From: a virus
Taxonomy: Duplodnaviria; Heunggongvirae; Uroviricota; Caudoviricetes
Virus record (IMG/VR): IMGVR_UViG_2651869691_000005
DNA length: 26,439 nt
Direction: 5' to 3' (one strand)
In this document: positions 10,875 to 24,508 of the stretch, one piece after another
How positions within the stretch are numbered: the stretch's first letter is position 1
Layout: the number at the start of each line of letters is the position of its first letter
Notes under the pieces: generated by a model
Seen by the model: the letters and a program-made list of their open reading frames with translations, nothing else
What the model was told of the DNA's origin: nothing
Databases searched by the model: none
Made by a program: the position numbers and the translations under genes

Positions 10875-11306
10875 GGAGTTTACTCACATCTGACAAAATC
10901 AATATAAACAGCCCCTCCGGAGAGGGGCTGGAGAGTGGCGCTATGTGCCATTGCATGGTGCCGGGTGCCTCCCGGTGAATTCAGTACCAGCACCTGAATC
11001 CGCGATTATCCCATATACCTACTCGCTGATTGCCCCTCCGCACAGGGGGATTCACCATGCCAGTTTCTTTTAACAAACTCCCCGCAAACCAGACAACAGT
11101 CAACCGCCTGAATTGTGAAGTATTTAAAAATTTCTCCGGCTAACAGTCTGGCGTTTTCTTTTTCAGCAACGGGAAAGCAACAACCACCACACCCGCCACC
11201 AGTACACAGTCAGCCAGCACTGACATTATCCGGCTGCTGCAATGCCATTCACAAAAACAGTAAGCAATCACTTTTTACCGTAACAGGTGATAATCCAGAT
11301 ATGTAT

Positions 11307-11770: not shown

Positions 11771-11847
11771 TGGCGCGTTGTACTGGATTCGAACCAGTGA
11801 CCGATTGCTTAGAAGGCAATTGCTCTGTCCGGCTGAGCTAACAACGC
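11771..11847 (-). tRNA. tRNA-Arg (anticodon UCU)
   Basis: Reverse complement GCGTTGTTAGCTCAGCCGGACAGAGCAATTGCCTTCTAAGCAATCGGTCACTGGTTCGAATCCAGTACAACGCGCCA folds as a canonical cloverleaf with a TCT anticodon, TTCGAAT T-loop and encoded CCA. Confidence 0.8.
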
Positions 11848-11860
11848 ATAATGCAGATAA

Positions 11861-11937
11861 TGGATTGCCATCGGGGACCCGGGCCCCACACAGCCAGTTT
11901 CGAAAGCTGACGCTCTCTGCCGATGAGCTAATGGCGG
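11861..11937 (-). tRNA. tRNA-like element, possibly a degenerate tRNA (candidate anticodon UCG)
   Basis: Lies between two clear tRNAs with a D-arm-like GCTC...GAGC, but the acceptor stem has two terminal mismatches and the T-loop is CCCGGGT rather than TTCRANY. Confidence 0.35.
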
Positions 11938-11944
11938 TATGTGA

Positions 11945-12020
11945 TGGTGGCCCTTGCTGGATTTGAACCAGCGACCTGGCGATTATGAGTCGCTCGCTCT
12001 CACCACTGAGCTAAAGGGCC
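11945..12020 (-). tRNA. tRNA-Ile2 type (anticodon CAU, ileX/ileZ-like; elongator Met cannot be excluded from sequence alone)
   Basis: Reverse complement GGCCCTTTAGCTCAGTGGTGAGAGCGAGCGACTCATAATCGCCAGGTCGCTGGTTCAAATCCAGCAAGGGCCACCA; canonical cloverleaf, closely resembling E. coli ileX as recalled. Confidence 0.8.
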
Positions 12021-16017: not shown

Positions 16018-16045
16018 AAAAAACAAAACCCGCCGAAGCGGGTTA
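16018..16045 (-). terminator. Intrinsic terminator at the 3' end of the hok transcript
   Basis: Minus strand reads AACCCGCTTCGGCGGGTTTTGTTTTTTCC: stem-loop with GC-rich stem and U-run, about 70 nt downstream of the hok stop. Confidence 0.65.
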
Positions 16046-16112: not shown

Positions 16113-16268
16113 TTACTCCTCAGGTTCGTAAGCTGTGAAGACAGCGACCTCCGTCTGGCCGGTTCGGATTCGTACCTCGCAGAGGTCTTTCCTCGTTACC
16201 AGTGCCGTCACTATGACGGTTAAACAGATGACGATCAGGGCGATTAACATCGCCTTTTGCTGCTTCAT
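16113..16268 (-). CDS. hok: Hok/Gef-family type I toxin (51 aa; HokD/RelF-like)
   Basis: Found by manual translation (below the ORF-track size cutoff): MKQQKAMLIALIVICLTVIVTALVTRKDLCEVRIRTGQTEVAVFTAYEPEE, matching Hok/Gef family sequence as recalled. SD AAGGAG 8 nt upstream. A 19-codon upstream ORF (from 16322-16324) ends in ATGA overlap with the hok start. Confidence 0.8.
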   Translation of the reverse strand: MKQQKAMLIALIVICLTVIVTALVTRKDLCEVRIRTGQTEVAVFTAYEPEE

Positions 16269-16526
16269 AGCCTGCTTCTCCTTGACCTTTCGGTCCGTAA
16301 GAGGCTAATCTCTATGTGTCGCATAGATATGGCCTCAGATTAATGTTAAGCGTCTTGCAGGACGCGTAATGTTAACTGGGGCTTTTCTCTATCTGCCTTT
16401 TGGTGTTCATGCCTGAGACAGATAGCCTCAAGCACCCGCAGTCATTCTACTTAACTAAGATTTCCCCGCAAACCGTTTTTGTCCGGCACAGTAAATATCC
16501 AACTAAACCAATGGCGTTCGCTGTAT

Positions 16527-16706: not shown

Positions 16707-17179
16707 TATTCCCCCTACAATCAATGTGCAATAACATTTAAACACACCTCAATTTAGCCGGACATATAAATATCTAAACCAGAAAAAATCACTTACATAG
16801 CGTTACAAACTCTTTAGTCTAAATATTCATCGCAAAACATTCCCCATACTTATCAGCCCGTTCTGCGCCAGGTAGCTCATTGCCTTATCTGGGAATCTGT
16901 AATCAGGTTTCCGGATGCTGGTGGATTTTCGCATTTTAGTTGTTCATAAAAGTGCACAGCTTTAACCAGTTCTTCTGATGTAACCGGGACTGGCGGGGCA
17001 GTGAATAAGGCCTGAATTTCATAGTTCGGCCTGTCGTTACAATCCTCTTTTTTCGGTACATATTTCCAGTCACCAGACCACTACTTCCCCTGAAAGTCCG
17101 TAACGCCTTTTTTTCACGTAGCGATATCGCCATGCCACTGTTTTTGCTTGCCCCGCCGTTTCATGCCCTTCCTGATAAT

Positions 17180-17365
17180 TAACCTCGCTCATTCATCGCC
17201 CCACTCATCACAATATGCTTCGACCGGAGTTTTTCCTGCTTCATAATCATCACGCCATGCTTCAGCATCAGCAGCACTGCCACCACGTAACTCTGCATAG
17301 TCCATTAACAGTTCATGCCATTCTTCAAAACCGACGTTGTATTTAGTTGAACCAAAATCAGCCAT
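17180..17365 (-). CDS. Hypothetical small acidic protein (61 aa)
   Basis: Manual translation from ATG 17363-17365 with strong SD (GAGGAAGAACAAAATG): MADFGSTKYNVGFEEWHELLMDYAELRGGSAADAEAWRDDYEAGKTPVEHIVMSGAMNERG. Not in the ORF track although it is above the apparent size cutoff; start overlaps the upstream gene stop. Confidence 0.4.
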
Positions 17366-17540
17366 TTTGTTCTTCCTCTTCGTCTTTTATTTCGTGATAT
17401 GAGTAATTGCAGTAGTTAAAGAAAATATCTTTTGCTTCGTCATGTATTTCATCAGGCGTCGCATCATCATCCACTTCGAATTCATCCTCGAAATCTCCAC
17501 CGGCTATTCCCGTTTCAATAATTATTTTAAACTTTCGCAT
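17358..17540 (-). CDS. Hypothetical highly acidic small protein (60 aa)
   Basis: ORF MRKFKIIIETGIAGGDFEDEFEVDDDATPDEIHDEAKDIFFNYCNYSYHEIKDEEEEQNG, preceded by the conserved SD-hairpin element. Confidence 0.45.
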   Translation of the reverse strand: MRKFKIIIETGIAGGDFEDEFEVDDDATPDEIHDEAKDIFFNYCNYSYHEIKDEEEEQNG

Positions 17541-17545
17541 TTAAC

Positions 17546-17570
17546 TACCGCCCTTTCGGGCGGCCTCCTG
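17546..17570 (-). promoter_or_regulatory. Hairpin-split ribosome-binding element, copy 1
   Basis: Minus strand reads TCAGGAGG-CCGCCC-GAAA-GGGCGG-TAGTTAA-ATG: an SD, then a 6-bp GC stem with GAAA loop, then the start codon of the 17358-17540 gene. Confidence 0.5.
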
Positions 17571-17596: not shown

Positions 17597-17650
17597 CGGT
17601 TAAGGATTAAATTTTTAACAGAGCTAAATTTAATTATTCAGTTCTGGATT
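17597..17650. repeat. ~55-bp intergenic direct repeat, copy A
   Basis: CCGGTTAAGGATTAAATTTTTAACAGAGCTAAATTTAATTATTCAGTTCTGGATT aligns with copy B at 18861-18918 apart from small indels and substitutions. Confidence 0.5.
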
Positions 17651-17990
17651 TTGTCGCCCTGCGTATCCGCGCTTTCGCGTTACGCTCAATCTGAATTAGC
17701 TTTTCTATATTTTTTCGCCTTTCCCGCTCCTCCTGACGCAAGAGCCTTACATCATCTGCCAGTCTGGTTTCTCTTTTCGCCACAGAGAGCATCCAGTCAA
17801 ATGGTTCCACAACTGCACCGCAGATTTTACAGCGGACCTGACGCTCTTTTTCGTCAACCCGGACAGAGGCGTGATGACAATATGGTCTTTCCGATGGCTC
17901 ATAAAGAAAATTAACCTGATTACGAGGGTCATCCTCTTTTACCGGAAATAAAACGATATTGCTTAACTCATCCTCTGGTTTTATTTCCAT
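17634..17990 (-). CDS. Hypothetical zinc-ribbon-containing protein (118 aa from ATG 17990)
   Basis: Start ATG 17988-17990 with strong SD (AAGGAGAGGAGC). Contains PYCHH...CKICG; C-terminal basic coiled-coil-like segment. Confidence 0.5.
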   Translation of the reverse strand: MEIKPEDELSNIVLFPVKEDDPRNQVNFLYEPSERPYCHHASVRVDEKERQVRCKICGAVVEPFDWMLSVAKRETRLADDVRLLRQEERERRKNIEKLIQIERNAKARIRRATKSRTE

Positions 17991-18111
17991 GCTCCTCTCC
18001 TTTGATGCGAATGCCAGCGGTAATTGAAGCCTGATAGCTAATTTCACTCACAGTACCGCCTCCTGAAAATTTAATGAACAATTCAATACGTTCTTTGGTA
18101 ATAGTGGTCAT
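17968..18111 (-). CDS. Possible small ORF (47 aa)
   Basis: Manual translation from ATG 18109-18111 with SD AAGGAG 8 nt upstream: MTTITKERIELFIKFSGGGTVSEISYQASITAGIRIKGEEHGNKTRG. Overlaps the start of the downstream gene. Confidence 0.3.
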   Translation of the reverse strand: MTTITKERIELFIKFSGGGTVSEISYQASITAGIRIKGEEHGNKTRG

Positions 18112-24450: not shown

Positions 24451-24508
24451 TTTCTGGTGACGTTTGGCGGTATCAGTTTTACTCCGTGACTGGTCTGCCG
24501 CCCTTTTT
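24451..24508 (+). ncRNA. dicF: DicF sRNA homologue
   Basis: TTTCTGGTGACGTTTGGCGGTATCAGTTTTACTCCGTGACTGGTCTGCCGCCCTTTTT matches the ~53-nt E. coli DicF sequence as I recall it, with one or two substitutions. Lies in a ~550-nt noncoding stretch of the early-left operon, as dicF does in Qin. Confidence 0.7.

What the first reader, a model, noticed from the sequence alone, without database searches (positions are those of the whole stretch)
17180..17540. Overlapping pair of highly acidic small proteins: possible DNA-mimic or anti-defence candidates
Two adjacent, translationally coupled ORFs of 60-61 aa are extremely rich in Asp/Glu (for example DFEDEFEVDDDATPDEIHDEAKD and a KDEEEEQ tail). Small acidic early proteins in phages are often DNA mimics or host-takeover factors such as anti-restriction proteins. 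This is speculation from composition and location only. The second ORF (17180-17365) is absent from the ORF track although it has an ATG start and a strong SD.
Basis: inference. Interest (0 to 1): 0.45.

Follow-up and report, generated by a model that had tools for sequence, protein, structure and literature searches.

The report
Two small acidic prophage accessory genes
Two tiny, very acidic genes that overlap head-to-tail in an E. coli lambda-like prophage are real, conserved and mobile among phages and plasmids, but nothing links them to any characterised protein, so the DNA-mimic or anti-defence idea is still an untested guess.

Summary
On the minus strand lie orfA (17358-17540, 60 aa, net charge -15) and orfB (17189-17365, 58 aa not 61, net -12). 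They overlap by 8 nt (ATGGCTGA).

Both are genuine genes. dN/dS is about 0.1, RefSeq annotates both, and each exact sequence occurs on at least 1000 contigs. orfB was missing from the ORF track probably because it falls below a 60-aa cutoff.

The window is a Qin/Rac-type lambdoid prophage. The pair sits in the rightward operon between the replication genes and hokD/RusA/Q, not in an immediate-early region.

orfA belongs to Pfam DUF7167. Its model is a beta-hairpin plus helix with an acidic tail. Relatives occur in phages of Gram-negative and Gram-positive hosts. orfB belongs to PHROG 519 and has no Pfam family. Its model is an acidic three-helix bundle. Relatives occur in Ackermannviridae, T5-like and P2-like phages and in over 400 IncI2 plasmids.

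Away from E. coli prophages the two genes never co-occur, so the pair is not an obligate unit.

Neither protein matches a solved DNA mimic, a listed anti-defence protein or a defence component by sequence or fold. The acidic residues are conserved by position, which fits an acidic protein-binding inhibitor. The target is unknown. This is an ordinary but reasonable experimental candidate.

The parts
17358..17540 (-). orfA: a 60-aa acidic protein of Pfam family DUF7167 (PF23768) and PHROG 1997. The model shows a beta-hairpin (residues 2-8 and 17-23), a helix (29-43) and a low-confidence acidic C-terminal tail.
   Evidence: ORF. Pfam 55.1 bits against a cutoff of 24.4. PHROG 1997 at E=9e-31. AF2 model with pLDDT 88. 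dN/dS about 0.09. The start codon is supported by family alignment A5, in which homologues begin at MRKF/MRRF/MKTL.
17189..17365 (-). orfB: a 58-aa acidic protein with no Pfam family. It matches the C-terminal part of PHROG 519. The model is a three-helix bundle (helices 13-27, 34-42, 47-55) with an aromatic core (F13, W16, W37, Y41, Y51, W55).
   Evidence: ORF. PHROG 519 at E=5.5e-22, profile positions 76-137 of 143. No Pfam family for it or for 28 relatives. AF2 model with pLDDT 87. Family alignment. dN/dS about 0.10 against the IncI2 copy.
17358..17365 (-). The 8-nt overlap ATGGCTGA, in which the orfB start lies inside the end of orfA. This is a translational-coupling junction.
   Evidence: Sequence. 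The same junction is present in 79 of 80 IMG/VR prophage loci. It is also present in IncI2 plasmids, where the upstream gene is a DUF1187 gene instead of orfA.
17541..17570 (-). Translation-initiation region of orfA. AGGAGG lies at 17564-17569. A 7-bp GC-rich hairpin with a GAAA loop (17547-17564) separates it from the ATG. This region is also the left boundary of the mobile cassette.
   Evidence: Sequence. RNA fold. Homology with the Stx2a phage ArgO145 begins exactly at TCAGGAGG; one C-to-T change in the Rac-442/2 copy keeps the pairing as G.U. The scan did not call it a terminator because there is no T-run.
17189..17192 (-). ATGA overlap between the orfB stop codon and the start codon of the downstream gene. 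In this window that gene is a decayed Ea22/DUF551-like gene (16827-17192, frameshifted).
   Evidence: Alignment. PGAP marks a pseudogene at the equivalent place in NZ_CP023142. The intact counterpart in ArgO145 is gp13, an ead/Ea22-like protein.

Best explanation
The finding is a small mobile cassette, made of a Shine-Dalgarno site plus hairpin, orfA and orfB. It sits in the accessory part of the rightward (pR, nin-like) operon of a Qin/Rac-type lambdoid prophage of E. coli.

Shown: orfA (DUF7167) and orfB (PHROG 519 family) are two unrelated genes that evolve independently under purifying selection. Each encodes a single mini-domain of 55-60 residues. The negative charge of each is conserved in amount and in position.

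Inferred: each protein acts on its own as a stoichiometric binder. It uses its acidic surface to occupy a basic, nucleic-acid-binding surface of a bacterial protein, either a defence nuclease or another DNA/RNA-binding host factor. That would make it a counter-defence or host-takeover inhibitor of the functional kind typified by Ocr, T7 gp5.9, T7 Gp2 and TifA. Neither protein is homologous to any of these, and the target is unknown.

The overlap of the two genes gives coupled expression in E. coli prophages. It does not indicate a two-subunit machine.
For: Real genes:
- dN/dS is about 0.1.
- PGAP annotates both.
- Each exact sequence is on at least 1000 contigs.

Conserved charge:
- Net charge is -10 to -18 in 39 DUF7167 members at 30-80% identity, and -4 to -15 in 29 orfB relatives.
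- Eleven positions in orfA and seven in orfB are acidic in at least 70% of members. The other conserved positions are hydrophobic or aromatic and are probably core residues.

Confident compact models: pLDDT 88 and 87.

Accessory-gene behaviour of DUF7167:
- It lies in pL operons next to Arf-ERF-SSB-Dam and Xis-Int.
- It lies next to ERF-YqaJ-SSB.
- It lies upstream of an exonuclease in Guernseyvirinae.
- It occurs in Enterococcus Herelleviridae.
- It lies inside a Ter gene cluster of large phages.
- It occurs as a lone opposite-strand moron among tail genes.

Accessory-gene behaviour of orfB relatives:
- They occur in Ackermannviridae, T5-like, KP34-like and Morganella phages.
- They follow gene A in P2-like prophages.
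- They lie next to SocA_Panacea genes.
- They follow Ead/Ea22 genes in Enterobacter prophages.
- They are 88% identical in more than 400 IncI2 conjugative plasmids.

Mobility of the cassette: in the Stx2a phage ArgO145 the same cassette lies in the early-left exo-xis/Ea22 region.

Precedent: TifA is a small acidic enterococcal phage protein that binds and inhibits type IV restriction enzymes although it does not resemble B-DNA (PMC10680825).
Against: There is no direct functional evidence of any kind.
- No similarity to any solved DNA mimic or other solved structure. Single-sequence and profile searches of the PDB gave nothing below E=0.016, and that best hit is a designed repeat protein.
- Acidity also fits other roles. 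Examples are partners of SSB or recombinases, or regulators.
- The NADAR-orfB fusion in phage EP_H11 argues, if anything, for an adaptor or recruitment role rather than DNA mimicry. It is rare: 4 of 646 records.
- In IncI2 plasmids orfB is about 15 kb from mobC and beyond repA, so it is not obviously in the leading region where plasmid anti-defence genes cluster.
- Some prophage copies carry nonsense mutations, so the genes are dispensable for a resident prophage.
Confidence: 0.35

Rival explanations
1. The proteins are accessory factors of phage DNA replication or recombination. They would bind a phage or host DNA-metabolism protein (SSB, annealase, exonuclease, replication initiator) and modulate or recruit it, rather than inhibit a defence system.
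For: DUF7167 recurs next to ERF, YqaJ and SSB genes. It also lies next to an exonuclease and a gp2.5-like SSB in Guernseyvirinae. In this window it lies in the nin-like region, which also carries RusA. orfB relatives directly follow P2 gene A. One is fused to a NADAR DNA-repair-type domain. The acidic C-terminal tail of orfA resembles, in character only, the acidic tails of SSB proteins (my knowledge, untested).
Against: The association is not consistent. DUF7167 also sits in Ter clusters, among tail genes and near integrases. orfB sits after capsid genes in Ackermannviridae and in an IncI2 plasmid operon with SPFH/NfeD genes. Early operons hold recombination genes and morons side by side, so adjacency is weak evidence. 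One exonuclease label in Enterococcus phage MDA2 may be an annotation error: in a related metagenomic contig the gene at that position is a DUF3850/ASCH protein.
Confidence: 0.2
2. The genes benefit the lysogen. They would be prophage-expressed morons that alter host physiology, lysogeny decisions or exclusion of other phages. In this reading they work alongside the neighbouring Ea22-like, hok/sok and DicB-type functions rather than during lytic growth.
For: The pair is extremely common in resident and cryptic E. coli prophages, in 2533 of 5426 genomes. orfB repeatedly neighbours Ead/Ea22-like genes. One DUF7167 is a lone opposite-strand moron among tail genes, a typical layout for lysogen-expressed morons. 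In P2-like prophages orfB lies between gene A and the portal gene. That is the region known as a hotspot for defence genes (Rousset et al. 2022, PMC9122126, title and abstract only).
Against: In the window there is no separate promoter or terminator for the pair. It lies inside the long lytic rightward transcript. Both families also occur in strictly virulent phages, including Ackermannviridae, T5-like phages, Herelleviridae and Guernseyvirinae, where a lysogen benefit is meaningless. There is no PADLOC match.
Confidence: 0.12
3. orfA and orfB are the two subunits of one heteromeric complex, or a toxin-antitoxin-like pair. On this reading the overlap reflects a need for matched dosage.
For: The 8-nt overlap is kept in 79 of 80 loci. 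The pair moves as a unit between the nin-like region in this window and the exo-xis region of ArgO145.
Against: The 80 loci are near-identical E. coli prophage segments and are not independent observations. In 17 diverged DUF7167 loci and 16 diverged orfB loci the other gene is never within 4 kb. In IncI2 plasmids orfB is coupled through the same junction to an unrelated DUF1187 gene. Both proteins are strongly acidic, which makes a tight complex between them electrostatically unfavourable (inference).
Confidence: 0.06
4. The ORFs are chance or decaying reading frames with no function.
For: Some copies carry stop codons or lack the ATG. Rac-442/2 orfA has M1I and C44stop. PhiR42_1 has orfA K37stop and orfB W37stop.
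Against: dN/dS is about 0.1 with a third-position bias. Both families reach down to 30-40% identity in unrelated phages. The structure models are confident. Pfam and PHROG families exist.
Confidence: 0.02

Closest known systems
Pfam DUF7167 (PF23768) / PHROG 1997
   Same: orfA is a full-length member, at 55.1 bits against a cutoff of 24.4. It shares the conserved MRKFKVxIET...FEVxDDAT.EEI..EAKD.F.N.CNY motif.
   Different: Nothing distinguishes it from the family. The family itself has no known function and no paper in the searched library mentions it.
PHROG 519 (unnamed family). It was flagged as a machine-predicted anti-CRISPR in Kuttervirus phages (PMC9409062).
   Same: orfB matches at E=5.5e-22. 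It shares the motif F.EW...L...A..GGSA.D..AWR.DYDAGKTP..AW.DEWG with proteins of Det7, Menlow, EP_H11, phiKDA1 and Mecenats66.
   Different: orfB covers only profile positions 76-137 of 143. The anti-CRISPR label came from the predictors AcrHub/PaCRISPR and was never tested. No Pfam family covers these proteins. A depositor's DUF5419 label on the Morganella phage homologue is not reproduced by a Pfam scan.
DNA-mimic inhibitors: T7 Ocr, ArdA, lambda Gam, T7 gp5.9, T4 Arn, phi29 p56, Ugi
   Same: All are small, very acidic phage or plasmid proteins. The charge density of the pair (-0.25 and -0.21 per residue) is in the range I recall for these proteins (my knowledge). They share the accessory-gene status and the occurrence in both phages and conjugative plasmids.
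TifA (Orf65 of Enterococcus phage phi47), an inhibitor of type IV restriction enzymes
   Same: It is a small acidic phage protein that binds and inactivates defence nucleases directly without resembling B-DNA (PMC10680825). This is the closest functional analogy for what is proposed here.
   Different: TifA is described as two globular domains, one of them SH3-like, with 21% acidic residues. orfA and orfB are single mini-domains with different folds. phi47 is not among the 38 phage records that hold an orfA relative. Homology was not tested directly.
T7 Gp2, inhibitor of host RNA polymerase
   Same: It is a 64-aa acidic protein with a similar order of secondary-structure elements. There is a locally similar stretch: KKFWATVES...SFEVPIYAETLDEA in Gp2 against RKFKIIIET...EFEVDDDATPDEI in orfA.

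Membership tests
Pfam DUF7167 (PF23768), for orfA | Whole-protein HMM score at or above the curated gathering cutoff of 24.4 bits | tested here: met
   55.1 bits, E=7.9e-15, residues 2-53 on profile positions 1-60 of 60.
PHROG 519, for orfB | Significant match to the family HMM | tested here: met
   E=5.5e-22, 79.7 bits, covering only profile positions 76-137 of 143.
DNA-mimic anti-restriction/anti-nuclease proteins (Ocr, ArdA, Gam, gp5.9, Arn, p56, Ugi) | Sequence or profile homology to a characterised member | tested here: not met
   phmmer and family-profile hmmsearch against all PDB chain sequences found no such hit at E up to 10. The held supplements of the EVADES catalogue contain no occurrence.
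DNA-mimic anti-restriction/anti-nuclease proteins | Fold similarity to a solved mimic | tested here: not met
DNA-mimic anti-restriction/anti-nuclease proteins | High, conserved density of acidic residues | tested here: met
   33% and 28% D/E, with net charges of -15 and -12. The charge is conserved across both families and at defined positions. Surface exposure was inferred from the secondary structure, not measured.
DNA-mimic anti-restriction/anti-nuclease proteins | Carboxylates arranged like the phosphates of B-DNA, usually on a dimer | not testable with these tools
DNA-mimic anti-restriction/anti-nuclease proteins | Binds and inhibits a DNA-binding enzyme | not testable with these tools
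   This needs experiments.
T7 Gp2-like RNA polymerase inhibitors, for orfA | Profile similarity to the Gp2 family | tested here: not met
   hhalign of alignment A5 against 23 Gp2 sequences gave probability 0.6% over 21 aligned columns. Against T7 Gp2 alone the probability was 0.09%.
Ribbon-helix-helix antitoxin/repressor fold, for orfB | N-terminal beta-strand with alternating hydrophobic residues followed by two helices, and significant similarity to RHH proteins | tested here: not met
Known anti-phage defence system components (PADLOC-DB 2.0) | Match to any PADLOC model | tested here: not met
   No hit at E up to 1 for orfA, orfB or three upstream neighbours.
Obligate two-gene system (orfA plus orfB) | Co-occurrence of the two genes across diverged relatives | tested here: not met
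   The partner is within 4 kb in 0 of 17 diverged DUF7167 loci and 0 of 16 diverged orfB loci. Co-occurrence is 80 of 80 only among near-identical E. coli prophage loci.

The most novel reading that the evidence does not exclude
One or both families could be a new class of broad-host anti-defence inhibitor. The orfB three-helix family is shared by therapy-relevant Ackermannviridae, by T5-like, P2-like and lambdoid phages and by IncI2 (mcr-1-type) conjugative plasmids. DUF7167 is shared by phages of Gram-negative and Gram-positive hosts. Such an inhibitor would be a minimal acidic domain of about 55 residues that blocks a widespread nucleic-acid-targeting immune system. That would explain why it travels between viruses and plasmids.
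Probability: 0.2. Interest if true: 0.6.

Novelty: new member of a known kind. Interest (0 to 1): 0.3.

Why it matters
If either protein proves to be a counter-defence factor, it would add a very small and very widespread inhibitor family. orfB is in about half of complete E. coli genomes, in Kuttervirus and Taipeivirus phages considered for therapy, and in more than 400 IncI2 plasmids, the plasmid type that includes mcr-1 carriers. It could then be relevant to phage host range and to plasmid establishment. As it stands, the result is mainly a clean-up. The genes are real, already catalogued as DUF7167 and PHROG 519, independent of each other and of unknown function. They are reasonable but not exceptional candidates for an anti-defence screen.

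Tried and rejected
1. Sequence homology to solved proteins. Single sequences and family profiles were searched against all PDB chains. Nothing was significant.

3. PADLOC and NCBIfam gave nothing.

4. RHH/antitoxin reading of orfB. This was prompted by a weak hit to ORF56 (E=0.31). It was rejected on the model and on the N-terminal sequence pattern.

5. T7 Gp2 homology for orfA. This was prompted by a local resemblance recalled from memory and then verified in sequence. It was rejected by hhalign, which gave a probability of at most 0.6%.

6. DUF5419 label on the Morganella phage homologue. A Pfam scan does not reproduce it.

7. NADAR-orfB fusion as a Rosetta-stone clue. The fusion is real but rare, at 4 of 646 records, so it carries little weight.

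8. Plasmid leading-region location for the IncI2 copy. This is not supported: the gene is about 15 kb from mobC and beyond repA.

9. Three-gene unit with the upstream Zn-ribbon ORF. The ORF is upstream in 78 of 80 loci, but only among near-identical loci. It is absent from all diverged loci.

10. Literature. There are no papers for DUF7167, DUF5419 or the three WP accessions. The sequences do not occur in the held supplements of two accessory-gene screens or of EVADES.

11. The long multi-repeat proteins among the representative hits (P0167, P0174, P0182) match only helix 1 and are unrelated repeat proteins.

Full report
**What is there.**
The finding lies on the minus strand.
- orfA is 17358..17540 (ATG start, 60 aa). 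orfB is 17189..17365 (ATG start, 58 aa).
The quoted peptides are correct.
- orfA has 33% Asp+Glu and a net charge of -15. orfB has 28% and -12. Both have pI about 4.05.
- They are the two most acidic of the 97 ATG-ORFs of at least 50 aa in the window. The next highest has 19% D/E.
- The orfB ATG sits inside the last codons of orfA (ATGGCTGA, an 8-nt overlap). A GAGGA Shine-Dalgarno lies 9 nt upstream.
- The orfB stop in turn overlaps the ATG of the next gene (ATGA).

**Are they genes?**
Yes.
- Against diverged copies, dN/dS is about 0.09 for orfA (Rac-442/2 and PhiR42_1 copies) and about 0.10 for orfB (IncI2 plasmid copy). Differences pile up at third codon positions.
- RefSeq annotates both in an identical stretch of E. 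coli CFSAN061770: WP_001224662.1 (DUF7167 family protein) and WP_000753057.1 (hypothetical protein).
- The 541-bp region occurs in 2533 of 5426 complete E. coli genomes.
- Each exact protein is on at least 1000 contigs and is named only 'hypothetical', 'prophage protein' or 'DUF7167'.
- A few prophage copies are decaying, with nonsense mutations in Rac-442/2 and PhiR42_1.

**Where they are.**
The window is a Qin/Rac-type lambdoid prophage.
- It carries portal, terminase and Nu1 genes, a lysis cassette, a SASA esterase, two tRNAs, a DNA methylase and a Q-like DUF1133 gene.
- It also carries RusA, DUF968 and hokD/sok, then the small-ORF cluster that holds the pair.
- Beyond that cluster come DUF977, DUF1627, a DnaC-like gene, an O-like gene, YdaT, Cro, the repressor, DicF and dicB.
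- The pair therefore lies in the delayed-early rightward operon between the replication genes and Q, a nin-like accessory region. It is not in an immediate-early position.
- No promoter-like or terminator-like site sets the pair apart.
- In the Stx2a phage ArgO145 the same cassette lies instead in the early-left exo-xis/Ea22 region.
- Homology between the two contexts begins exactly at the AGGAGG-hairpin element upstream of orfA. The unit that moves is therefore SD-hairpin-orfA-orfB.

**orfA.**
- It is a full-length member of Pfam DUF7167 (55.1 bits against a cutoff of 24.4) and of PHROG 1997.
- Relatives at 30-70% identity occur in several phage groups:
  - Klebsiella Guernseyvirinae and lambdoid phages;
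  - Enterococcus Herelleviridae;
  - the Pseudomonas phage PsgM04F;
  - the E. coli phages phiWec188 and phiWec190;
  - Yersinia and Citrobacter prophages.
- Foldseek against BFVD extends the fold to uncharacterised proteins of phAPEC8, Lactococcus phage 949 and Streptomyces phage Paedore.
- The AF2 model built on 39 homologues (pLDDT 88) has a beta-hairpin (2-8, 17-23), a helix (29-43) and a low-confidence acidic tail.
- Conserved positions are of two kinds:
  - hydrophobic, probably core: F4, I6, I8, F21, V23, I32, A36, F40, C44, Y46, Y48;
  - acidic: E9, E22, D24-26, D30-31, D38, plus the tail.

**orfB.**
- No Pfam family covers it or 28 of its relatives. It matches the C-terminal part of PHROG 519.
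- An exhaustive HMMER search of 1.84 billion representative proteins found only 62 clusters. Almost all are stand-alone proteins of 48-80 aa.
- The consensus is F.EW...L...A..GGSA.D..AWR.DYDAGKTP..AW.DEWG, with W37 and Y41 invariant.
- Stand-alone relatives occur in phages and prophages:
  - Ackermannviridae, as Det7 gp16 and Menlow gp173;
  - the KP34-like phage phiKDA1 and Morganella phage Mecenats66;
  - P2-like prophages, directly after gene A;
  - metagenomic phages, next to SocA_Panacea genes;
  - Enterobacter prophages, directly after Ead/Ea22 genes.
- At 88% identity a copy occurs in more than 400 IncI2 conjugative plasmids. There it is coupled through the same ATGGCTGA junction to a DUF1187 gene, in an operon that begins with a CaiF/GrlA-family regulator and continues into SPFH and NfeD genes.
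- In the T5-like phage EP_H11 the domain is fused to the C-terminus of a NADAR domain. That fusion is rare: 4 of 646 records.

**Is it a pair?**
Only locally.
- Among 80 IMG/VR loci with an identical orfA, all 80 have orfB downstream and 79 keep the overlap. A Zn-ribbon ORF lies upstream in 78. These loci are near-identical E. coli prophage segments, so they are not independent.
- In 17 diverged DUF7167 loci and 16 diverged orfB loci, neither the partner nor the Zn-ribbon gene is ever within 4 kb.
- The two proteins are therefore independent modules that happen to be coupled in E. coli lambdoid prophages.

**What do they do?**
No test here gives a function.
- Profile searches of all PDB sequences found nothing relevant for either family. 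The PDB includes Ocr, ArdA, Gam, gp5.9, Arn, p56, Ugi, Gp2 and many anti-CRISPRs (my knowledge of its contents).
- PADLOC and NCBIfam are silent.
- No paper mentions DUF7167 or the accessions.
- The sequences do not occur in the held supplements of two accessory-gene screens or of the EVADES anti-defence catalogue.
- PHROG 519 was once listed as a machine-predicted anti-CRISPR in Kuttervirus genomes. That was never tested (PMC9409062).
- Two leads of my own failed. A ribbon-helix-helix reading of orfB rested on E=0.31 and the model disagrees. A T7 Gp2 relationship for orfA has an hhalign probability of at most 0.6%.

**Best explanation and its limits.**
What the data do show is purifying selection, compact folds, negative charge conserved at defined positions, and the wandering distribution typical of phage and plasmid accessory genes. 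From this I infer, at about 35% confidence, that each protein is a stoichiometric binder. Its acidic surface would occupy a basic nucleic-acid-binding surface of a bacterial protein, giving counter-defence or host takeover. Ocr, gp5.9, Gp2 and TifA are the functional models for this. TifA shows that such inhibitors need not look like B-DNA (PMC10680825).

The main rival, at about 20%, is an accessory role in phage replication or recombination. It is suggested by the recurrent ERF, YqaJ, SSB and exonuclease neighbours of DUF7167, and by the gene-A and NADAR associations of orfB. Lysogen-benefit and heterodimer readings are less likely. The chance-ORF reading is refuted.

**Verdict.**
The genes belong to already catalogued families of unknown function. 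This is a reasonable but unexceptional candidate for an anti-defence screen.

Noticed in passing
window 17541-17570 (minus strand): The AGGAGG upstream of orfA is 23 nt from the ATG. A 7-bp GC hairpin with a GAAA loop (17547-17564) lies between them, and folding it would bring the spacing to about 6 nt. This looks like a hairpin-bridged split ribosome-binding site of the kind described for T4 genes 38 and 25 (my knowledge). It is conserved and marks the exact left end of the cassette shared with phage ArgO145. One C-to-T change in the Rac-442/2 copy keeps the pairing.
   Followed up: partly
window 17634-18047 (minus strand; PGAP start at 17990): An ORF of 118 aa (137 aa from an upstream GTG) with a Zn-ribbon and a basic coiled-coil C-terminus (PHROG 1621, unknown function). 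It lies upstream of the pair in 78 of 80 near-identical prophage loci but is absent from all diverged loci of either family. The exact sequence is very common in E. coli.
   Followed up: partly
window 16827-17192 (minus strand): A frameshifted remnant of an Ea22/DUF551-like gene. Its ATG overlaps the orfB stop (ATGA). The intact counterpart in ArgO145 is gp13, an ead/Ea22-like protein.
   Followed up: partly
L003 2006-2662 (Escherichia phage EP_H11, T5-like): A 218-aa protein that joins a NADAR domain (residues 16-160) to an orfB-like domain at its C-terminus. NADAR enzymes reverse DarT ADP-ribosylation of DNA. Only 4 of 646 phage records with a relative of this protein cover 80% or more of it, meaning both domains.
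   Followed up: partly
L008 7793-8177 (IncI2 plasmid pMCR-1, NZ_CP030766.1): An 88%-identical orfB in more than 400 IncI2 plasmids. It is coupled to a DUF1187 gene through the same ATGGCTGA junction. The operon runs from a CaiF/GrlA-family regulator through DUF1187, orfB, SPFH and NfeD towards type IV secretion genes.
   Followed up: partly
window 16113-16437 (minus strand): A hokD/sok type I toxin-antitoxin locus: Hok at 16113-16268 and sok RNA at 16266-16437. A terminator-like hairpin lies at 16027-16044.
   Followed up: no
window 10900-11089, 11771-12020, 24452-24503: The sRNA STnc100 (minus strand), tRNA-Arg(tct) and tRNA-Met(cat) (minus strand), and DicF RNA (plus strand). These are usual lambdoid-prophage cargo.
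   Followed up: no
L113 3297-5176 (JGI metagenome contig): A distant orfB relative (36% identity) lies directly upstream of two SocA_Panacea-domain genes. Panacea is an antitoxin-type domain, so this may be a phage counter-defence cluster.
   Followed up: no
L106 4001-4168 (Logan contig): A DUF7167 gene stands alone on the opposite strand among tail genes (Dit-like, tail terminator). This is a classical moron layout.
   Followed up: no
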